From NCBI GenBank assembly GCA_942493105.1, contig OW818668.1:840001-872000 (forward strand): 32,000 nucleotides of DNA, read 5' to 3'. Origin of the DNA: an uncultured Erysipelotrichaceae bacterium. Lineage in GTDB: Bacteria > Bacillota_I > Bacilli_A > Erysipelotrichales > Erysipelotrichaceae. Made by a program: the position numbers and the translations under genes. The notes under the pieces were generated by a model. That model searched no databases and had not been told where the DNA came from. It worked only from the letters and a program-made list of their open reading frames with translations. Of the stretch, positions 5,680-31,737 are shown one piece after another. Numbering within the stretch: the stretch's first letter is position 1; the number at the start of each line of letters is the position of its first letter.

Positions 5680-6441
5680 ATGATCAAAAACGAAAATCTT
5701 AGAAAGCTTATTAGAATTGGGGCAGTCATTGCTTTGGTTTTCTCGTTGTATTTTTTTGCTGCAGAAGCTCTCAGTTACTTAAGTCATCAACAAGAGTTAA
5801 AAAATCTTCAAGATATTCGTGATGAAGTGTCAGAAGATATCATCGATACAAGTGGAGAAGTTAAAGAAGATACCTCAGACATCATGGGATCGATCCAATA
5901 TTACACAAAACTCAAGCTACAAAATGACGCCTATATTGGTTGGATCTATATGCCCAAGCTTAAGATTGATTATCCTATGGTCTTAGCTCCAAATAATGAA
6001 TATTATCTCAATCGTAGCTTTTATAAAACCTACAATAAGTATGGAACAATCTTCGCAGATTACAGAAATGTAGGGGTCTATGATGATGCTCATTTGATCA
6101 TATATGGACATCATATGAAGAGTGGTAACATGTTCAGTCGTCTTGATGATTTAAGGCAAAAACGCAACTACGAACCAAATAAGATCATCGAGATCTATAC
6201 AAAAGACGGACTTAAAAAATACATTATTTTTTCAATTTACGCGGTAGATGCGAAGAAAACCACATTTGATCTGCCCTATACAGGAGATATCCAAAATTTA
6301 CTAACAAGTTATGCAGAAAAATCTCTATATGCAACAAATGTAGATACATCTGAAGCTACCCATGTATTAACCTTGGTCACATGTACTTTAGCAGTAACCA
6401 ATGGCAGGCTTATTGTTCATGCGATACCTTATGAAGAATAA
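5680..6441 (+). CDS. srtB: Class B sortase
   Basis: N-terminal membrane anchor. Class-B-type NDAYIGWIYMPKLKIDYPMV...YYLNRSF...YGTIFADYRN block, catalytic His (IIYGHHM), Cys (LTLVTCT) and Arg (NGRLIVHA). Confidence 0.85.
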   Translation: MIKNENLRKLIRIGAVIALVFSLYFFAAEALSYLSHQQELKNLQDIRDEVSEDIIDTSGEVKEDTSDIMGSIQYYTKLKLQNDAYIGWIYMPKLKIDYPMVLAPNNEYYLNRSFYKTYNKYGTIFADYRNVGVYDDAHLIIYGHHMKSGNMFSRLDDLRQKRNYEPNKIIEIYTKDGLKKYIIFSIYAVDAKKTTFDLPYTGDIQNLLTSYAEKSLYATNVDTSEATHVLTLVTCTLAVTNGRLIVHAIPYEE

Positions 6442-6549: not shown

Positions 6550-6893
6550 AATCCATAGGGAGTCAACGCTACAGATTTAACATATTGTCTGTGTGAAGAG
6601 GTTTGCTATTGAAATTTGCAGTACAAATTAGGTGAAATTAATCCTTAAAATATCATGTTAATACTTAAGAAAATATTATGTGAATGCTATGTGAACTTAG
6701 TTTAAAGCAGTTAATAATCATGGAAAGTGCTATGATGTGGCCATGAGGTACTAATGAAAAACCTAAAAGAAATTTCTAAAATACGAAATTGAAAACAATG
6801 AACACAGAAGACAAAATTGTGATCAAAGCTTAAAAATCTATACATGAAGCATCTGCTGAAATCGAAGACTCTACCAATCAGTTGAAAGGTAAG

Positions 6894-7052
6894 ATGAAAC
6901 AGGTTGAAGGCAAGATTAAAATGGACATTAGCAAGAAAACTGACAATCCAAAACTGCAGGCAGAAGGATTAGCTGAAAAAGTATCTGGTGTTGCACAAGA
7001 AGTTAAAGGCAAAATTCAAGAATCCATCGTAGTCGTTAAACACAATTTTTAA
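6894..7052 (+). CDS. CsbD-family small stress protein (short form; the upstream in-frame extension from 6798 is broken by TAA at 6831)
   Basis: Translation is MKQVEGKIKMDISKKTDNPKLQAEGLAEKVSGVAQEVKGKIQESIVVVKHNF, which has the CsbD pattern (KGK..GK....D.KL.AEG...K.G..QE.KGK). GAAAGG lies 4 nt upstream of the ATG. It falls below the ORF-track length cut-off. Confidence 0.5.
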   Translation: MKQVEGKIKMDISKKTDNPKLQAEGLAEKVSGVAQEVKGKIQESIVVVKHNF

Positions 7053-7196
7053 TAAATAATCACGCATAGAAAATATTAACATAGAGTTCAATTACTCCTC
7101 TATAAAAAGCAATCCTAGATAGTTCCTACTATTCGGGCGCTTTTAGATTTTTAATACTAATAGCGTTTCTGAATACAGAAAGTTGAGGAACCCTTC

Positions 7197-9311
7197 GTGG
7201 CTATCACCGCGATTAAAGGTAGAAAAAGAAAAGACTCTAAAAAAGATAGTCAGGTACATCTTGAGAAAGATCCAAAGGAAAGAGATCTGCTTTCGGAATT
7301 GAATTTAGCCAATCAAGAGATCGCAGAACAACTTATTGAAAAGAAGAAACGTGAAGATGAATTAGCCATAGCCCATATTGAGTTGGTTTTTCAAGAGCAC
7401 GAGAAAGATATGCGTGCTAAAGAATTGGTTGTTGCTAATTCTGAACTCGCCTATCAAACTTCAGAGAAAGCAAAGCGAGCAGAAGAACTGGACATCGCCA
7501 ACAAGGAACTGGAATATCAAACTTCAGAAAAAGCAAATCGAGCATCAGAATTAGTTCTCGCCAACAAGGAACTGGAATATCAAACCTTAGAGAAAGCAGA
7601 TAGAGCTTCGGAACTCGATATTGCGAACAAGGAACTGGAATATCAAACCTCAGAGAAAGCAAATCGAGCGTCTGAGTTAGTCATTGCCAATAAAGAGTTG
7701 GCCTATCAAACTTCAGAAAAAGCGGATCGTGCATCTGAATTATTAGTTGCCAACATAGAGTTAGCCTATCAAACTTCAGAAAAAGAGGAAAGGGCTTCTG
7801 AGTTAAGGATTGCCAACAAAGAGTTAGCGTATCAAACCTCAGAAAAAGCAGATCGAGCCTCAGAACTAAAACTCGCAAAATCAGAACTAGCCTATCAAAC
7901 CACTGAAAAAGCAGATCGGGCTTCCGAGTTAAAAGTCGCCAATACAGAATTGGCCTATCAAACCTCAGAAAAAGCAGATCGAGCTACCGAATTAAAAATA
8001 GCGAATATAGAACTTGCCTATCAAACATCAGAGAAAGCAAACCGTGCTTCTGAATTAAAAATCGCTAATTCAGAATTGGAGTATCAAACATCAGAGAAAG
8101 CAGACCGAGCTTCGGAGTTAAAGATTGCCAACAAAGAATTGGCTTATCAAACCACAGAGAAGGCAGATCGAGCATCTGAATTGAAGATTGCTAATAAAGA
8201 ATTGGCTTATCAAACTGCAGAGAAACAAAAACGTGCAGATGAATTCATAATTATCAACAATACCCTCATTAATCAATATGAAAAGATTGAAAATCTTACC
8301 TATCGAGATCAAACAACAGGATTGTATAATCGCAAGTACTTTTTGAAGATGCTTGAGAATTATGATCATGACGAAAATCTTCCAATCAGTGTCATTGTTG
8401 GCGATGTTAATGGATTGGCACTGATCAATGACTCGTTTGGTAATGCACCGGTTGATGAAATTATGATCAAAGTATCCAAGCTACTTAAGAAATTTGTGCG
8501 TCGTGAAGATGTTATTTTTAGATTAAATCATGGTGGTTTTGCGATCATCCTACCCAGAACAGACTATGATACATCAAGTAAAATAGTCCACGATTTGAAA
8601 CTTCAAGCAAGTCAAGAAAAGGTGGGTCATTTTGATATTTCAATTTCGTGCGGTGTACAAACAAAGGGTTCTCTTAAAACAAAACTAAAAGAAATTATTC
8701 AAAGTGCTTATGAAGAACTTATAACAAATAAGAAAGCCGAAAGTACATTAGTAGAGCATAACACGATCAATTTAATTATGAAAATGTTGTTTGAAAAAAA
8801 CAGTCGCGAAATGTTGCACTCAGCTCGGGTTGGGAAGATTTGCGAAAGGATAGCGCAAAGGATGAATTTGAGTCAGGATGTCACCAATAGCATAAGAATG
8901 GCAGGGATGTTACATGATATAGGAAAAATTGGTATTGATGAAGCAATTCTAAATAAAGTTGGAAAACTAGACGATCAAGAATGGAAAGAAGTAAAGAAAC
9001 ATACTGAGATAGGTTATCGCATTCTAAGCGCCTCTAATGAATTTGCAAATTTTGCTGAAGATGTCCTAAAACATCACGAAAGAATGGATGGTAAGGGTTA
9101 TCCAAAAGGAATAAAAGGTGAAGATATTTCGTTGACTTCAAGAATCATTTCCATCGCTGATACCTATGATGCACTGACTTCGGATCGACCATATCGTTCT
9201 GCACTAAGTGAAGAGGTAGCCATAAAAGAAATTGTAAAATCATCAGGTCATCAATTTGATCCGGCGATTGTTGAGATATTTGTTAATTTGCTTCAGGAAC
9301 AAAGAATTTAG
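7197..9311 (+). CDS. c-di-GMP signalling protein: 15 x 21-aa helical repeats, a degenerate GGDEF domain (NHGGF, with RxxD retained) and an HD-GYP phosphodiesterase domain
   Basis: GTG start after GAGGAA. GGDEF-fold markers are present (TGLYNR, LALINDSFG, RRED-x5-NHGGF). Intact HD-GYP markers are present (HSARV, MLHDIGK, HHERMDGKGYP, DTYDALTSDRPYR). Confidence 0.9.
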   Translation: MAITAIKGRKRKDSKKDSQVHLEKDPKERDLLSELNLANQEIAEQLIEKKKREDELAIAHIELVFQEHEKDMRAKELVVANSELAYQTSEKAKRAEELDIANKELEYQTSEKANRASELVLANKELEYQTLEKADRASELDIANKELEYQTSEKANRASELVIANKELAYQTSEKADRASELLVANIELAYQTSEKEERASELRIANKELAYQTSEKADRASELKLAKSELAYQTTEKADRASELKVANTELAYQTSEKADRATELKIANIELAYQTSEKANRASELKIANSELEYQTSEKADRASELKIANKELAYQTTEKADRASELKIANKELAYQTAEKQKRADEFIIINNTLINQYEKIENLTYRDQTTGLYNRKYFLKMLENYDHDENLPISVIVGDVNGLALINDSFGNAPVDEIMIKVSKLLKKFVRREDVIFRLNHGGFAIILPRTDYDTSSKIVHDLKLQASQEKVGHFDISISCGVQTKGSLKTKLKEIIQSAYEELITNKKAESTLVEHNTINLIMKMLFEKNSREMLHSARVGKICERIAQRMNLSQDVTNSIRMAGMLHDIGKIGIDEAILNKVGKLDDQEWKEVKKHTEIGYRILSASNEFANFAEDVLKHHERMDGKGYPKGIKGEDISLTSRIISIADTYDALTSDRPYRSALSEEVAIKEIVKSSGHQFDPAIVEIFVNLLQEQRI
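7299..8243 (+). repeat. In-frame tandem array of 15 x 63 bp. The first two units are degenerate and the 13 from 7425 are well conserved. It encodes L-K-I-A-N-K-E-L-A-Y-Q-T-S-E-K-A-D-R-A-S-E units.
   Basis: The exact 63-nt period is read directly from the sequence. Units start at 7299+63n and end at 8243. Confidence 0.9.
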
Positions 9312-9751
9312 ATTGTTTGGCAATCTTACGCATAGAAAGATATTTATTTTGAACTGGATTTAGAGCGTAAATTCATTACGAATAAGCCTTAGTAAATGAG
9401 AAAATCAAATAAGTGAAAAAATGTTAAATGAGTGGATTTACTACAGTATTCACATATTCTAGTTAATAAGACTATACTGTGTATAGACCAACAAAGAGGA
9501 TAAGGTCATCAGTTAATGTTTTATTTTATATAAGGCTGTTGAAAATCAAATTATATCTCCTCAATGATATTGCCATGCTATGACTTCGAAATCACACGAA
9601 GTCACCATAAAAAAATAAGATACTGTATTCTCAAAGTATAAAGCAACACCTTGATCTAATAGAACTAATCTTACCTCCTTGATTACCTAGGAGTTTTATT
9701 GTCTTTTCGAATCCTTGTTGTTTGGAATCCCCAAACCGAAAGAGGCTAATA

Positions 9752-10585
9752 ATGATAAAGAAAAGTAATTCACGATGGACGATATTCAGCTTAACGCTAT
9801 CTTTGCTTATTTTGGTATCTACACCATTAACTATACTGGCCGCAACAGTTGAGGCTACAGTGCCGCTAAGTGACGCCTTAAGCTTTGCTGTATTAGCATA
9901 TTCTACAGTGACAAACACCGGAACAACCACAATCAGTGGCACTGCGGGAGGTGAAGTTGGACTGCATCCATCAACATCCATTACGGGAAAAGAAACAATG
10001 ACCATAAGTGGTACATATCATGAAGGTGATGCTGTTGCAGGATTGGCTCAAGCTGCTTTGCTAAATGCTATCACCAATGCTCATGGTCGATCAGCAACTA
10101 GGATAGCAACAGAGCTTGGAAATAAAACACTTCTAGGCGGTGTGTATGATACTGCAAGTGGAACATTTGGCATCACAGGGGACCTAACTCTTGATGGTCA
10201 AAACAATCCAGATACTGTGTTTATTTTTGATATGGCCTCAACATTAGTAACTGCGGCTGGAAGTAAAGTAATTCTAATCAATGGTGCTAATGCATGTAAT
10301 ATTTTCTGGCAAGTGGGAAGTTCAGCTACCTTGGGAACTACTTCTCATATATCTGGCCATATCTTAGCTACAGTATCCATTACTGCAAATGCAGGAGCTG
10401 TTATTGATGGATCATTGTTGGCGAACACTGGGGCAGTCACTTTAAGTGGTAATACGATTACAAATAATCTGTGCCCAACTAATGTGCCTAACACTGGTGT
10501 CCAAGAAGACTTCTTGATTATGGGCAGTTCACTGTTTATGTTGGCAATGGGTGCTTGGTATTTAACAAGAAAAAAGACTGCTTAG
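9752..10585 (+). CDS. Cell-wall-anchored DUF3494 (ice-binding-like beta-solenoid) surface protein with an NVPNTG sorting signal
   Basis: ATG at 9752 lies 6 nt after AGAGG, followed by a signal peptide. DUF3494 blocks are present (FAVLAYSTVTNTG.TTISG, LGGVYDTASG, TLDGQNNPDTVFIF, NIFWQVGSSATLGT, GHILATVSITANAGAVIDGSLLA..GAVTLSGNTI). The C-terminus is NVPNTG, a hydrophobic helix, then RKKTA. Confidence 0.85.
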   Translation: MIKKSNSRWTIFSLTLSLLILVSTPLTILAATVEATVPLSDALSFAVLAYSTVTNTGTTTISGTAGGEVGLHPSTSITGKETMTISGTYHEGDAVAGLAQAALLNAITNAHGRSATRIATELGNKTLLGGVYDTASGTFGITGDLTLDGQNNPDTVFIFDMASTLVTAAGSKVILINGANACNIFWQVGSSATLGTTSHISGHILATVSITANAGAVIDGSLLANTGAVTLSGNTITNNLCPTNVPNTGVQEDFLIMGSSLFMLAMGAWYLTRKKTA

Positions 10586-17108: not shown

Positions 17109-17843
17109 ATGAAAAAAATAATGATTGGAGAAATGAGTTGGATAGAAGCAAATGAAAGAATAAGAGAGTCTAGAGCAGTCATATTGCCTTTGGGATCTAC
17201 TGAACAACATGGTCCACACATGAGTTTAGCTACTGACACTACAGTTGCATCATATGTGTCAAAGGTTTTAGGTGAATTGACAGACTGTGTTGTTTTACCG
17301 ACCTTGCCTTTTGGGCAAGTTTGGTCTGCAAAAGATTTTCCGGGTACCATGTCGCTTAAAGAAAGAACTTTTATAGAGGTTGTTAAAGACGTTGTTATAA
17401 GTTTAGAAAAAGGTGGGGCACGAAACGTTATTTTGTTTTCGGGACATCTTGGAAACAACCTCCCCAGTAAGACAGCAGCAAGAGAATTGCTTGATGAATT
17501 TGGATATAAAAATGTATTCCATATTAGTTATACTGACATAAAAAAACACAGTTTAGGGATCATGGATACAGACCCATGGAATGGAAAAACCTTTCATGCT
17601 GCTGAACTCGAAACTTCAATCTTACTCCACATTGCGCCAGATGGAGTCGATATGTCAAAAGCGGTCCGTGAGTATCCGTTGGTTCCAGGAGATATAGAAA
17701 TAAGACCAATTCCTTGGAAGGATTTCAGTTCAACTGGCGTTTTCGGAGATGCAATTCCGTCAACCGCTGAAAAGGGAAAAAGATTCTTGGATAATTGGAT
17801 AAATGATATGGTTGAGATTATTGAGAAGAATGTTAAGTACTAA
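17109..17843 (+). CDS. Creatininase-family amidohydrolase
   Basis: Family signature LPLGSTEQHGPHMSLATD, later GHLGN and HAAELETS blocks. Strong RBS AAAGGAGGTG. Confidence 0.85.
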   Translation: MKKIMIGEMSWIEANERIRESRAVILPLGSTEQHGPHMSLATDTTVASYVSKVLGELTDCVVLPTLPFGQVWSAKDFPGTMSLKERTFIEVVKDVVISLEKGGARNVILFSGHLGNNLPSKTAARELLDEFGYKNVFHISYTDIKKHSLGIMDTDPWNGKTFHAAELETSILLHIAPDGVDMSKAVREYPLVPGDIEIRPIPWKDFSSTGVFGDAIPSTAEKGKRFLDNWINDMVEIIEKNVKY

Positions 17844-17874
17844 ATTGATCATATAGAGATCGGAAAGGTGGATT

Positions 17875-19254
17875 ATGGAATTCATTGCTTCAACATTTAA
17901 GATTATTGCTGGTCAGATCGAGTTGGTAATGGGAATTGTTGTTTTAATCGGTTTGATTATTCAAGGGAAAAAGCCATATGAAATTGTTAAAGGTGTTATT
18001 AAGGCTGTTGTAGGTGTTTTAATTTTAAAAGCAGGTTCAACACTCTTACAGGCACCTTATAAACCTGTAATGGAGATGATCAAAGCACAATTCAATATCA
18101 CAGGTATAATTACAGAAAACTACACTGGCATGGCTGCTATTAATACAGCCTTGTCTCCAGCAGTTTTGAGTATAATCCCTCAGGTTATGGTGTTTGGCTT
18201 CTTGGTCAATTTACTGTTGGCTCGATTTACCAATTTGAAATATGTATTCTTAACTGCCCATACTATGTTAGCTTTCTCAACTCTAACAGTATGGATGATG
18301 ACTTGGTTCTTTAAGGCAGAAGGATTACAATTATTACTTGCTAGTAGTCTCGTGTGTGGTGTTTATTGGACAATAATGCCAGCATGGGTTCATAAGTACT
18401 CTCGTCCTTTTGCTGGAGATAGTTTCACATTAGGTCACATTTCAGGATTTGCAGCAATTATAAGTTCACTCATTGGCCGAGTTCTTGGTAAATATAACAA
18501 GAAAGAACCAAAATTCTTTGATGAATCTGAAGAAGCAGAAAATAAATATTCTGGTTTATCAGTATTATTTAACGATAGTACAGTAGTAACAGCGATTTTG
18601 ATGACAATCGTATTGGGTGGAGCTACTCTGCTTGTAAAAAGAGAGTTGGTAGTTGCTGCTGCCGGTGCGATGAATCCTTATGTTTATATGTTTGAATTAG
18701 GCTTTAGCTTTACAGTTGGTATTGTAGTCTTGCTTACAGGTGTGCGTATGATGATTGCTGAATTGGTTCCAGCATTTAAAGGAATCTCTGATAAATTGAT
18801 TCCTAATGCTGTCCCAGCATTAGATATGCCAGTGTTTTATCCTTTAGCTCCATTCGCAGCTATTTTGGGTTTTATTGGAACTTTCCTTGGCGAATTCATT
18901 GGATTCTTTGTTCTTCTCGGAACAGGATCTGCCATTGTTATGATTCCTGGCATCATAGCTACCTTCTTTGATGGTGGTATCGCTGGTGTCTTTGGTTATA
19001 AATATGGTGGTAAAAAGGCAGCATTTATTTCAGGTCTTGTTGTTGGGTTGGTCCAAATTCTTGGCGGTGTATTCTTTACCAAATTATCAGGTATGTCAAC
19101 ACTTGGTGCAACCTATGGAAATACAGACTTTGGTTCCTTGTGGGCAGTGTTAGCCTTCATTATGAGTTTCTTAGGAAACGTATGGGTATTTATAGCATTA
19201 ATCGCAGTTCTGTTTGTAGTTGCAAATCATTTCTTAAAACCGAAAACAGTTTAA
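17875..19254 (+). CDS. PTS EIIC component, ascorbate (UlaA/SgaT) family
   Basis: 459-aa polytopic protein. The N-terminus and layout resemble SgaT/UlaA (..GIVVLIGLIIQGKK...IKAVVGVLILKAGSTLL..), and it sits in a cluster with EIIA and EIIB genes. Confidence 0.8.
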   Translation: MEFIASTFKIIAGQIELVMGIVVLIGLIIQGKKPYEIVKGVIKAVVGVLILKAGSTLLQAPYKPVMEMIKAQFNITGIITENYTGMAAINTALSPAVLSIIPQVMVFGFLVNLLLARFTNLKYVFLTAHTMLAFSTLTVWMMTWFFKAEGLQLLLASSLVCGVYWTIMPAWVHKYSRPFAGDSFTLGHISGFAAIISSLIGRVLGKYNKKEPKFFDESEEAENKYSGLSVLFNDSTVVTAILMTIVLGGATLLVKRELVVAAAGAMNPYVYMFELGFSFTVGIVVLLTGVRMMIAELVPAFKGISDKLIPNAVPALDMPVFYPLAPFAAILGFIGTFLGEFIGFFVLLGTGSAIVMIPGIIATFFDGGIAGVFGYKYGGKKAAFISGLVVGLVQILGGVFFTKLSGMSTLGATYGNTDFGSLWAVLAFIMSFLGNVWVFIALIAVLFVVANHFLKPKTV

Positions 19255-19335
19255 TTAGTAACTCATTGTGTGAATGAGTTTGATTATAAAATCAGACTCA
19301 TTCACATATTTATGAATGTTAGAAAGGAAATTACC

Positions 19336-20136
19336 ATGTGGTTTGATGAAGTATTTAAAACGAGAAAGCCAGTTATAGGTATGTGTCATTTTCAAGCTCT
19401 ACCTGGAGATCCGAATTATGACGAAGCAAAAGGAATGTCTTATGTAGTTGAAAAAGCTCGTCACGATTTGTTGGCACTCCAAAATGGAGGAGTTGACGCA
19501 ATTCTTTTCTCAAATGAATTTAGCTTACCTTACTTGACTGATGTTAAACCGGTAACAATTGCTGCAATGGCAAGGATTATTGGAGAATTAAAAAAAGAGA
19601 TAAAGGTGCCTTACGGAGTTGATGTGCTTTGGGATCCGTGTAAAAGCTTTGATTTGGCAGTTTCAGTTGATGCAAGCTTCGTTAGAGAGATTTTCACAGG
19701 AGTGTACGCTAGTGATTTTGGATTATGGAATACGAATTATGGTGAAACGATCAGACACAAAAATAGTATACACGCAAAACATGTTAGAGCACTATTTAAC
19801 ATTGTTCCAGAAGCGGCTAAATATCTTGCGGATCGAGATATCGAATCCGTTGCGAAGTCGACTGTATTTAACAATAACCCAGATGCATTGTGCGTTTCAG
19901 GCTTGACTGCAGGAGTTGCCACAGATACCGCAGTACTGACAAGAGTAAAAAATGCAGTACCCAACACAATGGTTTTCGTTAATACTGGAGTTAATTTAGG
20001 TAATGTTCATGAACAATTATCCATTGCTGATGGTTGTGTAGTTGGAACATTCTTTAAAAGAGATGGTCAGTTTTATAACGAAGTCGATGAAGCAAGAGTT
20101 AAATCTCTTATGGACAAAGTCAAGCAATTAAGATAA
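19336..20136 (+). CDS. BtpA/SgcQ-family TIM-barrel protein, paralog 1
   Basis: ATG at 19336 follows AAAGGA. KPVIGMCHFQALPGDP N-terminal signature and NTGV near the C-terminus. The listed GTG at 19270 lies inside an intergenic hairpin. Confidence 0.8.
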   Translation: MWFDEVFKTRKPVIGMCHFQALPGDPNYDEAKGMSYVVEKARHDLLALQNGGVDAILFSNEFSLPYLTDVKPVTIAAMARIIGELKKEIKVPYGVDVLWDPCKSFDLAVSVDASFVREIFTGVYASDFGLWNTNYGETIRHKNSIHAKHVRALFNIVPEAAKYLADRDIESVAKSTVFNNNPDALCVSGLTAGVATDTAVLTRVKNAVPNTMVFVNTGVNLGNVHEQLSIADGCVVGTFFKRDGQFYNEVDEARVKSLMDKVKQLR

Positions 20137-20172
20137 AGTTTATTGGAAAAGTGGATAATAAAAAAGGTGGTC

Positions 20173-20982
20173 ATGATGATAGCTGCTGAACGTAGAGAGT
20201 TAATAGTCCAAAAAATAAAAGCGAGTAAATTCGTATCAATTCAAGAGTTATCTAAGGAATTTAGTGTAACTGAGATGACGATTCGAAGAGACCTAGATTT
20301 TTTGACTCGCCAAGGCTTAATAAAGCGATCTCATGGAGGGGCTCTTATCAATGATAAGGTTGGTTTAGAATCAGAGTTCGATACAAGAAAAATTCAGCTA
20401 AGTGAAATAAAGGAAGTTATTGGTAAGAAAGCTGCAAGTTTAATTTCAGCAGGCGATTGTATTGCTATTGATTGTGGTACTACAGCGTACGAAGTGTCTC
20501 GATTTATATCAAATATCCCGGATTTAAAAGTGATTACTGCTTCAATCCCAGTTATTGCTGAACTGTTACAGTATCCGCAGGTAAATGTTATTTGTACTGG
20601 TGGAGAGCTTTCTATTAAAGATAAATCACTTGTTGGAAGCACGGCAATTCGTACTATTCAAGACTATATCCTGGACAAGGTTTTTATTGGAGTCGCTGGA
20701 ATCTCATTTGATTTTGGTTTCACCATGTTTAACATGAATGACACACTTGTTAAAAGAGCTTTTATTGATCGCGCTAGAGAAGTGATTGTTGTGGCGGACT
20801 CATCAAAGATCGGGGTTACTCGACATGCATATTTTTGTGAGATTGAAAAAGCAAATAAAATTATTACAGATAGTGGAATCAGCAACGAAGATTATCAGGA
20901 GTTCATAAATATGGGAATAGAGGTAATTATTGCTGATAAAGATAAAGTGAACTTTGGAGAAAATGATAACAAAAATCTTTAA
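20173..20982 (+). CDS. DeoR-family transcriptional regulator
   Basis: ATG follows AAGGTGG. N-terminal HTH (ERRELIVQKIKASKFVSIQELSKEFSVTEMTIRRDLDFLTRQGLIKRSHGGA) and a C-terminal DeoR sugar-phosphate sensor domain. Confidence 0.85.
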   Translation: MMIAAERRELIVQKIKASKFVSIQELSKEFSVTEMTIRRDLDFLTRQGLIKRSHGGALINDKVGLESEFDTRKIQLSEIKEVIGKKAASLISAGDCIAIDCGTTAYEVSRFISNIPDLKVITASIPVIAELLQYPQVNVICTGGELSIKDKSLVGSTAIRTIQDYILDKVFIGVAGISFDFGFTMFNMNDTLVKRAFIDRAREVIVVADSSKIGVTRHAYFCEIEKANKIITDSGISNEDYQEFINMGIEVIIADKDKVNFGENDNKNL

Positions 20983-21421
20983 TGAAGTTGAAGTTATTGA
21001 TGAGAAATTCGAAAATTGGATCCAGGTAGTTGACTTTGTTTGTGCAATTTTCACTAAAAGAAAATGGTCAACTAGTGATTACTTTGAACATATTAAAAAA
21101 GATATGATTGAAACGAAATCATATATGGTACTAGCACCCGGTGTCGTTTTATTGCACAGTTCACCAAAGAATGGTGCTCTTGATGATGCGTTCCATTTTA
21201 TAAAACTTAAACATTCAGTTAAGTTTGATCATGATTATAATGACCCAGTTCATTCAGTGATTACGTTTTCAGCAACAGATACTAAGAAGCATATTGAGTC
21301 GATTCAGAGACTGGCATATTTGTTGATTGATGAGGAATTTATGAATGAAATTAGACAGAATGTTAGTCGAATTGAGTTGATTAATATTTTATGTAAATAT
21401 GAAAATAAATCATTACAGTGA
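20963..21421 (+). CDS. PTS EIIA component (EIIA-2: mannitol/fructose/ascorbate type)
   Basis: About 150 aa with the EIIA-2 layout and a candidate phospho-His in APGVVLLHSSP. It overlaps the DeoR 3' end by 20 nt. TTG at 20954 is an alternative start. Confidence 0.7.
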   Translation: MITKIFNEVEVIDEKFENWIQVVDFVCAIFTKRKWSTSDYFEHIKKDMIETKSYMVLAPGVVLLHSSPKNGALDDAFHFIKLKHSVKFDHDYNDPVHSVITFSATDTKKHIESIQRLAYLLIDEEFMNEIRQNVSRIELINILCKYENKSLQ

Positions 21422-21439
21422 ACCGATGGAGGTTTCTAA

Positions 21440-21751
21440 ATGCTTAAAGTAAACACAGTATGTGTAAATGGAATGGGATCAAGTTTGATTCTTAGGATGA
21501 CTGTTGAAAAAGCCCTTAAAGAGTTAAACATAAATGCTCAAGTAACAGCAATAGATTTTAGTGGCTTTCAAGGGATGAAACCACATTTATGTATCACAAC
21601 TCCAGAGCTTGCAAAAAGTATTAAAGCTTCTGAAACCATGATTGTTTTAACAATAATCAATTTTACGGATGTTCAAGGAATAAAGCAGAAGATAGCTGAT
21701 GCTATTAATTTGTATCCGTTTCTTAAAGTTGAAGTTGATAAGAATAAGTAA
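21440..21751 (+). CDS. PTS EIIB component (ascorbate/lactose-type, Cys phosphocarrier)
   Basis: 103 aa. N-terminal KVNTVCVNGMGSSLILRM active-site Cys loop. RBS is GGAGG. Confidence 0.8.
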   Translation: MLKVNTVCVNGMGSSLILRMTVEKALKELNINAQVTAIDFSGFQGMKPHLCITTPELAKSIKASETMIVLTIINFTDVQGIKQKIADAINLYPFLKVEVDKNK

Positions 21752-21789
21752 GGGTACGTTCATATCCATATTTCAAAGGAGCGCAAAAT

Positions 21790-22596
21790 ATGTGGATTAA
21801 AAATACATTTGGAGTAATAAAACCAGTAATTGGAATGGTTCATATTGATGCATTACCCGGTACTGTTTTGTATAACCAAACTGGCGGTTTGAATAAAATA
21901 ATTGAGCATGCAAAACAAGATTATGTATCACTAGTAGAAGGTGGAATTAATGCGGTTATATTCTGTAATGAGAATGATAAACCTTATTCAAAAGAAGTTG
22001 ATCCTCATATTGTCTCCGCTATGACATTGGTTATTCGTGAAGTAGTAGGCAACAAAGTAATCATTCCTTTTGGAGTAGATATTCAATGGGATGCAAAAGC
22101 GTCATTAGCTGTTGCGAGTATGACAAATGCTTCCTTCATAAGAGGGATTGTTTCTGGTACCTATTGTGGAGATTTAGGATTCTTTACTCCAGATACTGAG
22201 GATATTCTCAAGTATAGGCACCAAATTAATGCTGACCATGTGAAGATTTTGACCAATATAAATCCAGAGTTTTCTGAATCACTTGATCGAAGATCGCTTG
22301 AATTAAGAATAATGACAATTTCTAAAAGTACTTTAGTTGATGGAATATGTGTATCAGGGATTATGGCTGGTGTTGCAACATCGTATGAAATGTTAAAGGA
22401 TGTTAAAAAACTGAATGGAGATTTCCCGATTATTGCAAATACAGGGATTAATTTTGATAACATAAATCAAGCTTTAGAGTATGCGGACGCTTGTGTAGTA
22501 GCCACATGTTTAAAAGTGAATGGCAACTCTAGGGGTCGGATTGATGTGAATAATGTTAAGAAGCTTATGGCAAAATTAAAAAAGGAGACAAAATGA
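21790..22596 (+). CDS. BtpA/SgcQ-family TIM-barrel protein, paralog 2
   Basis: KPVIGMVHIDALPGT signature. It is collinear with paralog 1 but strongly diverged. RBS is AAAGGAG. Confidence 0.8.
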   Translation: MWIKNTFGVIKPVIGMVHIDALPGTVLYNQTGGLNKIIEHAKQDYVSLVEGGINAVIFCNENDKPYSKEVDPHIVSAMTLVIREVVGNKVIIPFGVDIQWDAKASLAVASMTNASFIRGIVSGTYCGDLGFFTPDTEDILKYRHQINADHVKILTNINPEFSESLDRRSLELRIMTISKSTLVDGICVSGIMAGVATSYEMLKDVKKLNGDFPIIANTGINFDNINQALEYADACVVATCLKVNGNSRGRIDVNNVKKLMAKLKKETK

Positions 22597-23549
22597 AGTA
22601 TATACAAACTGTTTTAGGACAAATTAGACCTGAAGAATTAGGTGTTTCAAATTACCATGATCATTTGATTACCATTGGTGGTGGAGAAGAGAAAGCGGAT
22701 CGTGATTTAAGGCTTGATCGTGTTGATTATGCAATTGATGCGATGAAGAAATTTAAAGCGATTGGCGGCGATATGATGGTAGATATGAATCCAATCGATT
22801 GCGGCCGTCAAATTGAAATGCTTAAAGAAATATCTGAAAAATCCGGAATAAAGATTATTTCATGTACAGGTTTTCAAAGGTCTATTTATTACGATCCAGA
22901 GCATTGGGTCAATAAGTATTCAATAGAGGAAATTGCTAAGCTTATAGCTGAAGAAATAACGGTTGGTATTGAAATCAACAATTATGCTGGTCCAATCATT
23001 AGAAGAAGTACTGCAAAAGCTGGAGTAATAAAAATAGCGACTCATTACAACTGCATTCGTCCTATGGAATTACGCGTAATTGAAGCTGCTTGTTTGGCTT
23101 CGAAAATGACGGGAGCCCCTCTTTCATCACACACAGAAAGAGGAACAATGGGTCTTGAAGTGATAGAGCTAGTCAAGAAATTTGGAGTAGATCCTAGACG
23201 CTTGACTTTAGGCCATGTTGATCGAAACCCTGATCTTGAATATCACAAAAAAATGGCTGCCCAAGGTGTCACATTAGGTTATGATGGACCATCAAGAATC
23301 AAATATTGGCCCGACAGTGTATTAATCGAATTGATAAAAGGTATGTGTGATGCAGGATATTCAAAGAATATCATGTTAGGGGGAGATAACGGAAGAGCCT
23401 CAATGTGGCCTCAGTATGGTGGAGGTCATGGTCATAATTATATTTATGAGAAATTCATCCCAAGGTTGATAGAGGCGGGTGTTTCCCAAGATGATATAGA
23501 TAATATGTTGATTTATAATCCTAGAAGACAATTTTCTATTGAAAAGTAG
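22593..23549 (+). CDS. Phosphotriesterase-homology (COG1735, amidohydrolase-superfamily) protein, probable phospho-sugar lactonase
   Basis: Metal-ligand pattern is HDH (NYHDHL), KAGVIKIA, SSHT, LGHVD, GGD. It aligns by eye with E. coli Php along its whole length. ATGA start/stop overlap with the upstream BtpA gene. Confidence 0.85.
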   Translation: MKYIQTVLGQIRPEELGVSNYHDHLITIGGGEEKADRDLRLDRVDYAIDAMKKFKAIGGDMMVDMNPIDCGRQIEMLKEISEKSGIKIISCTGFQRSIYYDPEHWVNKYSIEEIAKLIAEEITVGIEINNYAGPIIRRSTAKAGVIKIATHYNCIRPMELRVIEAACLASKMTGAPLSSHTERGTMGLEVIELVKKFGVDPRRLTLGHVDRNPDLEYHKKMAAQGVTLGYDGPSRIKYWPDSVLIELIKGMCDAGYSKNIMLGGDNGRASMWPQYGGGHGHNYIYEKFIPRLIEAGVSQDDIDNMLIYNPRRQFSIEK

Positions 23550-29449: not shown

Positions 29450-30631
29450 GTGACGAAGCTTATAACTCAACCTTATGTGGTCATGGCCAAACCGGTTGGA
29501 CCACTATGTAATTTAGAGTGCAGTTATTGTTACTACTTAAATACTGAAGGCTCAAAATCAAAACATCCTCAGTTACAGATGTCAGATGATGTGCTAGAAG
29601 AATTCATTAAACAAATGATACAAACCAACCCAGGACCTGTTGTTTCTTTTACTTGGCATGGAGGAGAACCAACTCTTGCTGGATTGGACTTTTATCGTAA
29701 AGCAGTAGCACTTCAAAAAGAATACTTACCTAAGAACTGGACCTGTTGGAACAACCTTCAAACCAATGGAATCAATCTTGATGATGAGTGGTGTTCCTTT
29801 CTAGCTAAAGAACATTTCGATGTTGGGATCAGTATTGATGGAACCCAAACACTTCATGATCATTTTAGAAAAGATAAAAAAGGTCAAGGATCTTATCATC
29901 GTGTCGTTGAGTCAATTCATCGATTAAAAAAGGCGGGTATATTACCTGACCTTTTGTGCACAGTTAACTCGCTAACCACGAAAGATCCTTTGGGGGTCTA
30001 TCGAACCTTAAGAGAACTAAATACAGGATGGATCCAATTTATCCCTATTCTTATTAAAAATAGCGATGGAACTCTGGCTAGCGATTCGGTAGATGCCAAA
30101 GCTTATGGAGAATTTCTTAAAGTGATTTTCGAAGAATGGATCCATCATGATTTAGGTGTGGTAGATGTTCAGATCTTTGCGGAAACAGCCATAATGTGGG
30201 CTGGTGGATCTGCCAGTGTATGTTGGCTCGCACCGACTTGTGGCCGTGTTATGGTAGTTGAACGTAATGGGAACGTCTATTCTTGCGATCATTATGTATC
30301 ATCACAATATTACCTTGGAAATATTGAAAATTCATCTTTAGCTGACTTGGTTGATTCTCCATTTCAGAAACAATTCGGTCAAAATAAACGAGAACACATT
30401 GCACAAAAATGTTTATCATGTCCATATCTTAAAGTCTGTAATGGAGGATGTCCTAAAGATAGGATCGATCACGGAGATCTAAAAGGTTTAAATATTTTAT
30501 GTGAAGGACTATATGCCTTTCATGAGCATGCTGAAAAACCTTTGAAAGAACTGATGAGACTTAGAATGCAAGGTTTATCCCCGCAAGAAATTATGAAACA
30601 ACTAAGACTCAAGTTTCCTAAAAGCACTTAA
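29450..30631 (+). CDS. Radical SAM/SPASM maturase, anaerobic sulfatase-maturating-enzyme-like (AtsB/ChuR/YdeM type)
   Basis: CNLECSYCYY (CX3CX2C), GGEPTLAG, and the C-terminal SPASM motif CLSCPYLKVCNGGC (CX2CX5CX3C). The GTG start lies 1 nt after the DLH stop (ATG at 29483 is an alternative), so it is co-transcribed with DLH. Confidence 0.8.
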   Translation: MTKLITQPYVVMAKPVGPLCNLECSYCYYLNTEGSKSKHPQLQMSDDVLEEFIKQMIQTNPGPVVSFTWHGGEPTLAGLDFYRKAVALQKEYLPKNWTCWNNLQTNGINLDDEWCSFLAKEHFDVGISIDGTQTLHDHFRKDKKGQGSYHRVVESIHRLKKAGILPDLLCTVNSLTTKDPLGVYRTLRELNTGWIQFIPILIKNSDGTLASDSVDAKAYGEFLKVIFEEWIHHDLGVVDVQIFAETAIMWAGGSASVCWLAPTCGRVMVVERNGNVYSCDHYVSSQYYLGNIENSSLADLVDSPFQKQFGQNKREHIAQKCLSCPYLKVCNGGCPKDRIDHGDLKGLNILCEGLYAFHEHAEKPLKELMRLRMQGLSPQEIMKQLRLKFPKST

Positions 30632-30653
30632 AAAGTCATCCTAGATGACTTTT
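30631..30653. terminator. Bidirectional terminator between the convergent maturase genes
   Basis: AAAAGTCATC / CTA / GATGACTTTT, a 10-bp stem with A/T tracts. It overlaps both stop codons. Confidence 0.7.
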
Positions 30654-31737
30654 ATTTTCTGTATAGTGTCTTTATTTTGGGCAATGCATAATTCAAGAAA
30701 TCTTGATAGCCACACATCTTCTCATCAAAATAGGTCACATTGAGTCTTTTACAATTCCCATTACAGATCGATTTAAATTGACATGAGTTACACAAAGGAC
30801 TCATTCTTTTGGGTTCATTTATAAATTTTACAGATATTTCTCGATGTCGTAATTCCATAATAGAATCTGTATTGATGTTGCCAACTTTATATTGATCTAG
30901 TACAAAGAAATCGCATGGATAAACAGAACCATCAGCTTCAATGACAAACTGTGGTGTACAAAAACCCAGCATTCCACATTGTTGGGGATATTCCCCAACA
31001 AACATAGGGATCACATTATCAAACAAGGTAACACTAAGATAATCCCCTTTTATATAATCTGTATACCATAAGTCAAAGAATGACTTATAGAATGAAGCAA
31101 AAAGCTCTGGAGTTAGGGCATATTTACTGTCTTTTTGATCCAAGTCCGGTAGACAAGGTATCAACTGCACATAGTCAAATTTTTGCTTCTTATAGAAAGC
31201 ATAGAGTTCTTTAGGATGCTTGGCTAGGATGCTGGTCAATACAGTTAAGATATTAAAATCAACTTTATGGCTTCTTAACAAATCGACAGTCTTCATGACG
31301 GAATCATAGGTTCCCAATTGATTCGCATTCTTTCTAAGAAAATCATGATTGGCTTGATAACCATCTAGGGATAACCCAACTAAAAATTGGTGTTGGGATA
31401 AAAATTGAGCCCATGTTTCATCAAGTTGTGAGCCGTTGGTTTGAAGGGCATAATGTATCACTTGGGTTGGTTGTTTAAACTGATCGACAGATTCAACAAA
31501 TGCTTTGAAATAATCCAAACCAGCTAAAGTAGGTTCTCCACCTTGAAAGGCAAAAGTAACATCTTCAACTTGTGGATTTTCTGTTGCCTTTTTGATTAGA
31601 TTTCGCATCGTATCAAAAGTCATAATGCCTGTTGATTTAACTTCTCTATGGTTGCTGACATCTGCATAAAAACAATACACGCAGCGGTAGTTACATAAAG
31701 ATGAAGCTGGTTTGATCAACATACTAAGACTGGCCAT
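30652..31737 (-). CDS. Anaerobic sulfatase-maturating enzyme (anSME, close to the Clostridium perfringens anSMEcpe type)
   Basis: LSMLIKPASSLCNYRCVYCFY, FAFQGGEPTLAGLDYF, LQTNG, FLVGLSLDG, DGSVYPCDFFVLD, and SPASM CNSCQFKSICNGNC. RBS is GGAGGT. Confidence 0.85.
   Translation of the reverse strand: MASLSMLIKPASSLCNYRCVYCFYADVSNHREVKSTGIMTFDTMRNLIKKATENPQVEDVTFAFQGGEPTLAGLDYFKAFVESVDQFKQPTQVIHYALQTNGSQLDETWAQFLSQHQFLVGLSLDGYQANHDFLRKNANQLGTYDSVMKTVDLLRSHKVDFNILTVLTSILAKHPKELYAFYKKQKFDYVQLIPCLPDLDQKDSKYALTPELFASFYKSFFDLWYTDYIKGDYLSVTLFDNVIPMFVGEYPQQCGMLGFCTPQFVIEADGSVYPCDFFVLDQYKVGNINTDSIMELRHREISVKFINEPKRMSPLCNSCQFKSICNGNCKRLNVTYFDEKMCGYQDFLNYALPKIKTLYRK

What the first reader, a model, noticed from the sequence alone, without database searches (positions are those of the whole stretch)
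7197..9311. HD-GYP phosphodiesterase with a pseudo-GGDEF domain (NHGGF with intact RxxD) on a 315-residue stalk of fifteen 21-aa repeats
Seen: the protein has no signal peptide or TM segment. After a basic N-terminus, residues 35-349 are 15 back-to-back 21-residue units with consensus LKIANKELAYQTSEKADRASE. A GGDEF-fold domain follows. Its active-site motif reads N-H-G-G-F (nt 8526-8540) instead of GG(D/E)EF. R-R-E-D lies exactly five residues upstream, matching the spacing of the PleD-type RxxD inhibitory c-di-GMP site. The upstream DxD-type metal motif is D-V-N. The HD-GYP domain looks intact (HD at 8913-8918; HHERMDGKGYP with GYP at 9096-9104). Inference: this is a c-di-GMP hydrolase whose degenerate cyclase domain acts as a nucleotide sensor. 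It would be mounted on a very long helical element, about 47 nm if it forms one continuous helix at 0.15 nm per residue. Hydrophobic residues fall at positions 1, 3, 4, 8, 9, 10, 16 and 19 of each unit. No single heptad register gives a fully apolar a/d core, and the units are rich in E, K and R. The stalk may therefore be a single alpha-helix or a helical-hairpin repeat rather than a classical coiled coil. From memory, ANKEL-x-[FY]Q-x-x-EK-x-x-RA-x-EL occurs in one to a few copies next to PAS, kinase or GGDEF modules in other bacteria. An array of 15 would be exceptional, and the motif has no assigned function that I know of.
Basis: partly seen in the sequence, partly recalled or inferred. 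Interest (0 to 1): 0.7.

Follow-up and report, generated by a model that had tools for sequence, protein, structure and literature searches.

The report
Repeat-stalk HD-GYP phosphodiesterase, dead cyclase domain
This gene encodes a probable cyclic-di-GMP-degrading enzyme with an inactivated cyclase domain on a very long helical stalk of fifteen 21-residue repeats; the stalk is not a one-off, because the same almost invariant and still undescribed repeat forms arrays of up to 26 copies in well over a thousand bacterial signalling protein families.

Summary
ORF 7197-9311 (+) encodes a 704-aa soluble protein. It has a basic N-terminus, 15 phase-perfect 21-aa units (aa 35-349), and a GGDEF-fold domain with NHGGF in place of GG(D/E)EF and RRED five residues upstream. 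An intact HD-GYP domain follows.

The enzyme reading holds. In the orthologue clade the A-site is lost ([SN]NGEF, and the catalytic Lys becomes Ala), while RxxD is kept in 35 of 36 sequences. This fits a c-di-GMP-sensing pseudo-cyclase that controls an HD-GYP hydrolase.

The claim that 15 copies is exceptional is refuted. A repeat profile finds 1379 representative proteins, 382 of them at E<=1e-30. Arrays of 15-26 units are common in Bacteroidota histidine kinases and in GGDEF, EAL and HD-GYP proteins.

The repeat has no Pfam, NCBIfam, PDB or literature match. All heptad a, d and g positions are at least 96% invariant (a=L,L,K; d=A,Q,R; g=E,E,E). Unit spacing is 21 or another multiple of 7. 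The array stays in heptad register with the GGDEF start or the kinase phospho-His. Copy number differs between near-identical proteins.

The array is most likely a continuous parallel dimeric coiled coil with a partly polar core. A CsbD stress-protein gene is a conserved neighbour.

The parts
6882..7052 (+). CsbD-family small stress-protein gene, a conserved same-strand neighbour of this gene
   Evidence: It matches Pfam CsbD at 5e-12. A CsbD gene lies next to the orthologue in L001, L004, L005, L006, L007 and L008, while the other neighbours differ. Compared with the 86-aa orthologues there is an in-frame TAA at codon 12 upstream of this ORF.
7185..7189 (+). Ribosome-binding site GAGGA, 7 nt before the GTG start
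   Evidence: Read directly from the sequence.
7197..9311 (+). Complete CDS of 704 aa: basic tail, 21-mer repeat stalk, degenerate GGDEF, HD-GYP
   Evidence: An identical protein is present in the public collection, on a 2.03-Mb NCBI contig (P0001).
7197..7298 (+). N-terminal segment aa 1-34: a Lys/Arg-rich tail followed by the conserved cap motif RDLLxEL
   Evidence: R29, L31, E34 and L35 are at least 90% conserved in 25 orthologues. AlphaFold pLDDT is below 50 for aa 1-27.
7299..8243 (+). Array of fifteen 21-aa (63-nt) repeats, aa 35-349, predicted all-helical
   Evidence: AlphaFold places helices over the whole array. The unit HMM scores 13 units at 8 bits or more; the two N-terminal units are degenerate.
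8244..8306 (+). Sixteenth, degenerate unit (FIIINNTLINQYEKIENLTYR) that joins the stalk to the GGDEF domain
   Evidence: The distance from the last scored unit to the D of D.(L)TGL.NR is 42 residues here and in 45 of 56 relatives. It is a multiple of 7 in 54 of 56.
8301..8741 (+). GGDEF-fold domain (aa 369-515), catalytically degenerate
   Evidence: Pfam GGDEF 1e-21. It matches PDB GGDEF domains by sequence and by fold (PleD, DosC).
8418..8420 (+). Ala408 at the position of the conserved active-site Lys (D-x-N-G-L-K becomes ...G-L-A)
   Evidence: This position is K in 45 of 47 intact-GGDEF relatives and A in 32 of 36 degenerate-clade members.
8499..8510 (+). RRED, an RxxD I-site motif five residues before the A-site position
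   Evidence: R435 is at least 90% conserved and D438 invariant in orthologues. RxxD is kept in 35 of 36.
8526..8540 (+). NHGGF in place of GG(D/E)EF (dead A-site)
   Evidence: The clade carries SNGEF, NNGEF, ANGEF or SSGEF. This protein has additionally lost the last Glu.
8772..9269 (+). HD-GYP domain (aa 526-691), with all metal ligands present
   Evidence: Pfam HD_5 1e-39. Sequence matches to PDB 5z7c (V-cGAP3, 1e-41) and 4mcw (PmGH, 2e-39). Foldseek finds 4mcw, 4r8z and 9rbz. H541, H573, D574, H602, H626, H627 and D655 are invariant in orthologues.
9072..9104 (+). HHERMDGKGYP signature (HH metal ligands plus GYP)

Best explanation
The gene encodes a soluble cyclic-dinucleotide phosphodiesterase, most probably homodimeric.

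Shown: the HD-GYP domain has every metal ligand and the GYP loop, so it is the catalytic part. The substrate, most likely c-di-GMP, is inferred.

Shown: the GGDEF domain cannot make c-di-GMP. GG(D/E)EF has become NHGGF and the active-site Lys has become Ala. Its lineage has nevertheless kept the RxxD inhibitory-site motif under selection.

Inferred: this domain now binds c-di-GMP at the I-site and couples messenger level to hydrolase activity. I favour substrate-dependent activation, by cross-linking or re-orienting the two GGDEF domains that sit at the base of the stalk.

Shown: the 15 (16) x 21-residue array is one continuous helix, strictly in heptad phase with the helix that enters the GGDEF domain.

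Inferred: two such helices form a parallel, in-register coiled coil about 47 nm long. Its core alternates apolar layers (L1, A4, L8) with invariant polar layers (Q11, K15, R18, flanked by Glu at every g position).

Shown: this repeat is a widespread module without any family model. It always sits immediately upstream of a dimeric output domain (HisKA, GGDEF). It expands and contracts in 21-residue steps, which preserve the register.

Inferred: in this protein, which has no other sensor domain, the stalk acts as a dimerisation and spacing element. Its marginal, length-dependent stability helps set the activity of the output domains. The conserved CsbD neighbour suggests use during stress.
For: Domains and motifs. 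Loss of the A-site with retention of RxxD across the clade. More distant stalk-GGDEF-HD-GYP relatives keep GGDEF and the Lys, so the inactive state is derived. Helicity. Heptad phase: 2505 of 2589 unit spacings are exactly 21, and most of the rest are 42, 28, 63, 35, 14, 49 or 56. Register to the output domain: a multiple of 7 to the GGDEF start in 54 of 56, and mod 7 = 2 to the phospho-His in 57 of 82. Arrays begin 10-11 residues after the PAS 'DIT' motif in many kinases. Invariance of the a, d, e and g positions over 2065 distinct units. Selection on the peptide rather than the DNA. Copy-number differences: 3, 4, 5, 7 and 8 units among full-length members of one 90%-identity cluster with the same termini. 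Also 14 against 7 units in two loci with the same flanking genes, where the proteins are 93-95% identical outside the array. CsbD adjacency.
Against: There is no biochemical evidence for PDE activity, substrate, I-site binding or oligomeric state. Only 3 of the 6 a/d positions per unit are apolar. K15 and R18 would face their own copies in a parallel dimer. I3 and F/Y10, conserved hydrophobic residues, fall at outward-facing c positions, which hints at a further interface such as a tetramer or a partner. AlphaFold was run on monomers only, with moderate confidence on the stalk (pLDDT 60-80). The residue matching PleD R390, a second I-site contact (numbering from memory), is Asp here. The best PDB sequence match of the HD-GYP domain is a 3'3'-cGAMP-specific enzyme. 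Whether this organism makes c-di-GMP could not be checked from a 32-kb window. Some copy-number differences could be assembly errors in metagenomes.
Confidence: 0.6

Rival explanations
1. The repeat array is itself the input module. It would be a marginally stable coiled coil whose folding or register responds to temperature, ionic strength or crowding and so gates the dimer-dependent output domain. Copy number would tune the set-point.
For: Many array proteins have no other sensor domain, with the array starting at residue 8-20. Examples are this protein, P0035, P0045, P0076 and P0080. The polar core layers are invariant. Copy number changes quickly. Several hosts are cold-adapted genera: Polaribacter, Psychrobacillus, Sporosarcina. 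CsbD stress-gene adjacency.
Against: This is inference only. Many other members carry PAS, REC or CHASE3 domains upstream of the array, which argues for a linker role. No stability data exist, and the cold-habitat link is anecdotal.
Confidence: 0.2
2. The HD-GYP domain hydrolyses 3'3'-cGAMP or another cyclic dinucleotide rather than c-di-GMP, and the pseudo-GGDEF senses a different nucleotide.
For: The best PDB sequence match is V-cGAP3, a cGAMP-specific phosphodiesterase (5z7c, 1e-41).
Against: The c-di-GMP enzyme PmGH scores almost the same (2e-39) and is the top fold match. The retained RxxD motif is a c-di-GMP-binding motif. Relatives pair the same HD-GYP domain with an intact GGDEF cyclase.
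Confidence: 0.12
3. The stalk is a single alpha-helix (SAH) domain or a solenoid of helical hairpins, not an intermolecular coiled coil.
For: No register gives an apolar a/d core. The full-length AlphaFold monomer folded the array back on itself once.
Against: Charged residues make up only 38% of a unit, and L1, I/V3, A4, L8 and F/Y10 are 93-98% conserved. There is no Gly or Pro and no conserved turn. The AlphaFold break lay at the exact midpoint and disappeared when the array was truncated, leaving a continuous 202-residue helix. Heptad-quantised spacings and output-domain register are properties of a coiled coil.
Confidence: 0.07
4. The protein acts mainly as a scaffold or 'trigger' enzyme. 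The distal basic tip and cap motif, or the exposed I3/Y10 ridge of the stalk, would bind a partner such as CsbD, the membrane or nucleic acid, and hydrolysis would be secondary.
For: There is a conserved N-terminal cap (RDLLxEL) and a basic tail. Outward-facing hydrophobic residues are conserved. The CsbD gene pairing is conserved.
Against: The catalytic residues are fully conserved. No partner has been identified. The I3/F10 ridge is present in all array proteins, whatever the neighbouring genes.
Confidence: 0.1
5. The GGDEF domain is still an active or bifunctional cyclase.
For: The overall GGDEF fold is kept, and degenerate sites such as AGDEF can be active (PMC3974145, title and abstract).
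Against: Both Gly and both acidic residues of GG(D/E)EF are replaced (NHGGF), and the conserved Lys is Ala.
Confidence: 0.03

Closest known systems
HD-GYP c-di-GMP phosphodiesterases (PmGH 4mcw, PA4781 4r8z, DvhD 9rbz) and the cGAMP enzyme V-cGAP3 (5z7c)
   Same: The HD_5 fold, the H/HD/H/HH/D metal ligands and the GYP loop are shared.
   Different: The N-terminal partner differs: here a pseudo-GGDEF on a 315-residue repeat stalk, instead of REC, PAS, GAF-like or a second HD-GYP domain. The Glu that binds the third metal in PmGH aligns with Arg537, with an invariant Glu538 next to it.
Degenerate GGDEF domains that act as c-di-GMP receptors through the RxxD I-site (PelD, PopA; from my own knowledge), and GGDEF-EAL/HD-GYP tandems in which one domain is inactive (PMC6205966)
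   Same: The A-site is lost and RxxD is retained at the canonical five-residue spacing. The tandem includes a hydrolase domain.
   Different: Binding has not been shown. The partner is HD-GYP rather than EAL. Only three papers in the searched library even mention the GGDEF-HD-GYP tandem.
Signalling helix (S-helix) and coiled-coil linkers upstream of HisKA and GGDEF domains (PMC1592074; DgcR, PMC8041772)
   Same: It sits directly upstream of, and in heptad register with, dimeric output domains. It often follows PAS or REC domains. It has conserved polar residues in interface positions, including an Arg at a 'd' position.
   Different: The S-helix is a single module of about 40 residues with an E-R-T signature. 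Here a 21-residue unit with x-R-A at c-d-e is repeated up to 26 times, and its copy number varies.
Long coiled-coil thermosensor TlpA of Salmonella (from my own knowledge)
   Same: A long two-stranded coiled coil whose stability could serve as a signal.
   Different: There is no sequence relationship. TlpA is not built from a near-invariant 21-mer and is not fused to an enzyme. A thermosensing role here is speculation.

Membership tests
HD-GYP phosphodiesterase (Pfam HD_5) | The profile match exceeds the curated cut-off | tested here: met
   136.4 bits against a cut-off of 27.2, covering aa 526-691 and profile positions 2-170 of 170.
HD-GYP phosphodiesterase (Pfam HD_5) | Metal ligands H, HD, H, HH, D and the GYP motif | tested here: met
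   H541, H573-D574, H602, H626-H627, D655 and G634-Y635-P636 are present. They align with PmGH and V-cGAP3, and all but Y635 (at least 90% conserved) are invariant in 25 orthologues.
HD-GYP phosphodiesterase (Pfam HD_5) | Hydrolysis of c-di-GMP | not testable with these tools
   This needs an enzyme assay. The cGAMP-specific V-cGAP3 scores as well as the c-di-GMP enzymes.
Active diguanylate cyclase (GGDEF) | GGDEF fold | tested here: met
   Pfam GGDEF 77.8 bits. Fold matches to PleD and DosC.
Active diguanylate cyclase (GGDEF) | GG(D/E)EF A-site motif | tested here: not met
   NHGGF occupies aa 444-448. The ungapped alignment with relatives that carry GGDEF places N-H-G-G-F on G-G-D-E-F.
Active diguanylate cyclase (GGDEF) | Conserved Lys after the metal-binding Asp (D-x-x-x-x-K; PleD K332, numbering from memory) | tested here: not met
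   The residue is Ala408. It is K in 45 of 47 intact relatives and A in 32 of 36 of the degenerate clade.
I-site c-di-GMP receptor GGDEF | RxxD five residues upstream of the A-site position | tested here: met
   RRED occupies aa 435-438. RxxD is kept in 35 of 36 degenerate-clade sequences.
I-site c-di-GMP receptor GGDEF | Measured c-di-GMP binding | not testable with these tools
   This needs DRaCALA, ITC or a similar binding assay.
Canonical coiled coil | Heptad periodicity maintained over the whole length | tested here: met
   The unit is 21 = 3 x 7 residues. 2505 of 2589 spacings are 21, and nearly all exceptions are other multiples of 7.
Canonical coiled coil | Apolar residues at a and d positions | tested here: not met
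   In the best register a = L, L, K and d = A, Q, R, so only 3 of 6 are apolar. No other register does better.
Canonical coiled coil | Two or more helices wound together; oligomeric state and orientation | not testable with these tools
   Only monomer AlphaFold runs were possible. Parallel orientation is inferred from continuity with the GGDEF and DHp entry helices.
S-helix (Anantharaman, Balaji and Aravind 2006) | Position between a sensor domain and a dimeric output domain | tested here: met
   Arrays lie between PAS, REC or CHASE3 and HisKA or GGDEF in relatives.
S-helix (Anantharaman, Balaji and Aravind 2006) | A single module of about 40 residues with an E-R-T signature at c-d-e of the central heptad (PMC1592074) | tested here: not met
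   There is no ERT. The unit has [K/D]-R-A at c-d-e and is tandemly repeated. No S-helix profile was available to run.
Single alpha-helix (SAH) domain | Very high E/K/R content with dense i to i+4 ion pairs and no hydrophobic seam (definition from my own knowledge) | tested here: not met
   8 of 21 residues are charged, and L1, I3, A4, L8 and F/Y10 are conserved.

The most novel reading that the evidence does not exclude
The near-invariant 21-residue 'ANKEL-x-[FY]Q-x-x-EK-x-x-RA-x-EL' array is a previously unrecognised class of signalling module. It would be either an autonomous physical sensor (temperature, ionic strength or crowding) or a conduit that carries a register or rotation signal over 50-80 nm. 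Its set-point or gain would be tuned by heritable changes in copy number, in more than a thousand families of kinases and cyclic-di-GMP enzymes across several phyla.
Probability: 0.2. Interest if true: 0.75.

Novelty: new variant of a known kind. Interest (0 to 1): 0.5.

Why it matters
The enzyme part is an ordinary kind of c-di-GMP signalling protein, although GGDEF-HD-GYP hybrids have hardly been studied. The stalk is the more useful result. It is built from a repeat that no domain database, solved structure or searchable paper describes. Yet the repeat is found in about 1400 representative proteins from Bacteroidota, Bacillota, Spirochaetota, Synergistota and other phyla. It always lies in register with a dimeric output domain, its interface residues are almost invariant, and its copy number changes between close relatives. 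This provides a natural series of register-preserving linker lengths, from 1 to 26 units, for an open question: how, and how far, coiled-coil linkers transmit signals in bacterial sensor proteins. It also merits a family model so that these regions stop being annotated only as 'coiled coil', or picking up spurious hits such as PH_SLA1.

Tried and rejected
1. Literature searches for the motif strings (ANKEL..., EKEKRAAEL, YQTSEKADR and others), for '21-residue repeat' with histidine kinase and coiled-coil, and for HD-GYP, GGDEF, coiled-coil and tandem repeats together. None found a paper on the repeat; the last one only surfaced the S-helix paper and reviews used for comparison.
2. The Pfam hit PF24081 (PH_SLA1), listed for many array proteins, is spurious. 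It has no significant individual stretch and lies inside the repeats. No NCBIfam model covers the array.
3. A PDB profile search with the repeat found no chain at E<=1.
4. An exact look-up of the window's own protein found no contig. The genome scan did not return the source genome, so the organism is inferred only as a relative of an Erysipelotrichaceae MAG (L001: 81% identity, shared sortase and ice-binding-like neighbours).
5. The full-length AlphaFold model suggested an antiparallel hairpin. I rejected it as a monomer artefact, because the break sat at the exact midpoint and disappeared in a truncated construct.
6. The promoter and terminator scan was not above the shuffled expectation. 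Rfam found nothing in the window, including no c-di-GMP riboswitch.
7. Pfam annotation of the other ORFs scanned across the window showed no other c-di-GMP gene or functional partner apart from CsbD.
8. I considered and dropped 'DVN' as evidence of decay, because intact relatives carry it too.
Full report
**1. Observation**

The ORF 7197..9311 on the + strand encodes 704 residues. It starts at a GTG that lies 7 nt after a GAGGA ribosome-binding site. Cutting the protein into 21-residue blocks from residue 35 gives 15 consecutive units with no phase break. Units 3-15 are close to LKIANKELAYQTSEKADRASE, and units 1-2 are degenerate. A 16th, strongly degenerate unit (aa 350-370) merges into the next domain. 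Tandem Repeats Finder reports a 63-nt period with 12.4 copies and 78% matches. Pfam places GGDEF at aa 369-515 (1e-21) and HD_5 (HD-GYP) at aa 526-691 (1e-39). The most hydrophobic 19-residue window scores 1.13, so the protein has no membrane segment.

**2. The enzyme part**

The HD-GYP domain aligns over its whole length with V-cGAP3 (5z7c, 1e-41) and PmGH (4mcw, 2e-39). The AlphaFold model of this part finds the same structures by fold, together with PleD and DosC for the GGDEF part. All metal ligands (H541, H573-D574, H602, H626-H627, D655) are invariant in 25 orthologues, and the GYP loop is conserved with them (Y635 at 90% or more).

The GGDEF domain is degenerate:
- NHGGF aligns without gaps on GGDEF.
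- The conserved Lys after the metal-binding Asp is Ala408.

Comparison with relatives shows how this state arose.
- Stalk-GGDEF-HD-GYP proteins of Sporosarcina, Psychrobacillus, Synergistota and others keep GGDEF (49 of 49) and the Lys (45 of 47).
- The clade that contains this protein comes mostly from metagenomes, with Erysipelotrichaceae the only taxon named. It has SNGEF, NNGEF, ANGEF, SSGEF or NHGGF, and Ala, Ser or Thr instead of the Lys in 35 of 36.
- RxxD is kept in 35 of 36 of that clade.

Retention of RxxD after loss of catalysis is the best available argument that the domain still binds c-di-GMP. I could not establish substrate identity, I-site binding, or whether the host makes c-di-GMP.

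**3. The repeat is a large, undescribed family**

The first homology search returned 4075 hits. Many Bacteroidota histidine kinases cover 45-47% of the query at about 60% identity, which means they match the whole array. Reading the sequences shows arrays of 15-25 units in:
- kinases: P0018, P0020, P0035, P0042, P0047, P0050, P0074;
- a GGDEF-EAL protein: P0038;
- GGDEF-HD-GYP proteins: P0016.

A 63-residue profile built from this window's own units was run against 1.84 billion representative proteins. It found 1379 proteins at E<=1e-3, 885 at E<=1e-10 and 382 at E<=1e-30. With a unit HMM, the top 145 representatives carry 4-20 units (median 9). The proteins reach 26 units. This protein scores 13 units, plus its two degenerate ones.

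Nothing describes the repeat:
- No Pfam or NCBIfam model covers it, and the PH_SLA1 hits are spurious.
- No PDB chain matches the profile at E<=1.
- No paper in the searchable library contains the motif strings.

**4. Anatomy of the unit**

I collected 2065 distinct units from 287 proteins. Conservation by position is:

| Position | Residue | Frequency |
|---|---|---|
| 1 | L | 98% |
| 3 | I/V/L | 93% |
| 4 | A | 97% |
| 5 | N | 90% |
| 7 | E | 97% |
| 8 | L | 98% |
| 10 | F/Y | 96% |
| 11 | Q | 98% |
| 14 | E | 96% |
| 15 | K | 98% |
| 18 | R | 97% |
| 19 | A | 94% |
| 21 | E | 97% |

If L1 is taken as heptad position a, then every a, d and g position is invariant: a = L, L, K; d = A, Q, R; g = E, E, E. 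Two of the three e positions are also invariant, whereas b and f vary. That is the conservation pattern of a coiled-coil interface. Only half of the core positions are apolar, however, and two conserved hydrophobic residues (I3, F/Y10) lie at outward-facing c positions. An Arg at a d position is also the hallmark of the S-helix ('ERT' at c-d-e; PMC1592074). The resemblance is functional only, because the ERT signature is absent here.

**5. Evidence for a continuous, in-register coiled coil**

- Of 2589 spacings between neighbouring units, 2505 are exactly 21. Most others are 42, 28, 63, 35, 14, 49 or 56, all multiples of 7.
- The distance from the last scored unit to the Asp of the GGDEF 'D.LTGL.NR' motif is 42 in 45 of 56 proteins and a multiple of 7 in 54 of 56.
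- The distance to the phospho-accepting His of HisKA is 2 modulo 7 in 57 of 82 proteins. In many kinases the array runs straight into the H-box.
- At the N-terminal side, arrays often begin 10-11 residues after the PAS 'DIT' motif.

Established structures of these families show that the helices entering GGDEF and DHp domains pair in parallel in the dimer (for example DgcR, PMC8041772). The array is therefore most simply a parallel two-stranded extension of those helices.

AlphaFold, run on monomers only, predicts helix throughout. The full-length model breaks once, at aa 188-200, which is the exact midpoint of the helical region. The construct aa 119-704 gives one uninterrupted helix over aa 120-321, with no break at that place. 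The fold-back is therefore not encoded in the sequence. A single alpha-helix is unlikely, since only 38% of residues are charged and hydrophobic residues are conserved. A hairpin solenoid is unlikely too, since there is no Gly, Pro or turn motif.

**6. Evolution of the array**

Units 3-15 are 59-86% identical in DNA. Identity is 84% at codon positions 1+2 but 51% at position 3. The peptide is thus under purifying selection and the array is not a fresh slippage product.

Copy number is nevertheless labile:
- In the 90%-identity cluster of P0115, full-length members with the same N-terminus and the same 356-residue C-terminal part carry 3, 4, 5, 7 or 8 units.
- Two loci with the same flanking genes (L004, L005; about 90% DNA identity upstream) encode proteins that are 93-95% identical outside the array but have 14 and 7 units.
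- Within the degenerate clade the range is 1-17 scored units.
- The closest named relative, an Erysipelotrichaceae MAG (L001), has a shorter array. Its gene carries a frameshift in the array and a stop in the inter-domain linker.

Caveat: most of these sequences are metagenome assemblies, and tandem repeats can be mis-assembled.

**7. Genomic context**

The gene stands alone between a sortase gene and an ice-binding-like (DUF3494) surface-protein gene. The other ORFs scanned across the window are ordinary housekeeping and transport genes, with no other c-di-GMP component and no Rfam hit.

One neighbour is conserved. A CsbD-family gene lies next to the gene on the same strand, 120-145 nt upstream of it in the window, L004, L005, L006 and L008, likewise upstream in L001, and downstream of it in L007, although the other neighbours differ. 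The intact-GGDEF relative in Psychrobacillus has no such neighbour. This suggests, but does not show, a link to stress.

**8. Mechanism**

Shown:
- an intact HD-GYP catalytic site;
- a dead cyclase A-site;
- a conserved RxxD motif;
- an all-helical stalk in heptad phase that is continuous with the GGDEF entry helix;
- a widespread repeat family whose copy number changes in register-preserving steps.

Inferred:
- a homodimer held by a parallel coiled coil of about 47 nm;
- c-di-GMP binding at the I-sites at the base of the stalk, which changes the mutual arrangement of the GGDEF and HD-GYP domains and so adjusts hydrolysis (I favour activation by substrate);
- a marginally stable, partly polar core, which makes the stalk a tunable element rather than an inert one.

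Rivals, with my estimates: the stalk is itself a physical sensor (0.2); the substrate is another dinucleotide (0.12); the protein is mainly a scaffold or trigger enzyme (0.1); the stalk is a single alpha-helix or hairpin solenoid (0.07); the cyclase is still active (0.03).

**9. Verdict**

The protein is a new variant of known kinds: an HD-GYP hydrolase with a pseudo-GGDEF sensor, and a coiled-coil signalling linker. What replaces it is a moderately interesting result. The repeat is a large, strongly conserved, structurally unsolved family with no Pfam or NCBIfam model, and it deserves a family model and a biophysical test.

Noticed in passing
window 6798-7052 (+); L004 5620-5880, L005 5620-5880, L006 2597-2857, L008 2605-2865, L007 4781-5044: A CsbD-family small stress-protein gene lies next to the repeat-stalk phosphodiesterase gene on the same strand in every degenerate-clade locus examined, while the other neighbours differ. 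In the window, the frame that matches the 86-aa orthologues has an in-frame TAA at codon 12. L001 has a 1-nt difference at the same spot. This lineage therefore either makes a shorter CsbD (start near 6882/6891) or the gene is damaged.
   Followed up: partly
L001 1900-3420 (Erysipelotrichaceae MAG WSYG01000045.1): The closest named orthologue has a shorter array. It is interrupted by a frameshift inside the repeats and by a stop codon in the GGDEF-to-HD-GYP linker. It is either a pseudogene or an assembly error in a repeat-rich region.
   Followed up: partly
L004 6001-8076 versus L005 6001-7635: Two metagenomic loci share the same flanking genes (P-type ATPase, PadR, MFS, chromate transporter, SOUL, HAD, CsbD; Mnh antiporter downstream). 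They encode the same protein with 14 and 7 repeat units, which is a two-fold difference in stalk length between close relatives.
   Followed up: yes
window 9722-10585 (+) and 5680-6441 (+): An ice-binding-like (DUF3494, PF11999) protein with a signal peptide and a C-terminal hydrophobic anchor lies just downstream, and a sortase gene lies upstream. Both neighbours are conserved in L001. Several hosts of the repeat family are cold-adapted genera (Polaribacter, Psychrobacillus, Sporosarcina). This may be coincidence.
   Followed up: no
P0018, P0035, P0050 and many other array proteins: Precomputed Pfam annotations list PF24081 (PH_SLA1) and other families (G8, Zein, ATG16, PNPase) on the repeat arrays. 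These hits have no significant individual stretch. They are artefacts of summing weak matches over many repeats, so database annotations of these proteins are misleading.
   Followed up: yes
window 29450-30631 (+) and 30652-31737 (-): Two convergent radical-SAM/SPASM-domain genes lie at the far end of the window, possibly peptide-maturase-type enzymes. They are unrelated to the finding.
   Followed up: no
window 17109-23549 (+): A PTS ascorbate/galactitol-type cluster (EIIC-GAT, EIIA, EIIB, DeoR regulator) is interleaved with two BtpA-family genes, a creatininase-family gene and a phosphotriesterase-family gene. This is an unusual sugar-utilisation locus, and I did not examine it further.
   Followed up: no
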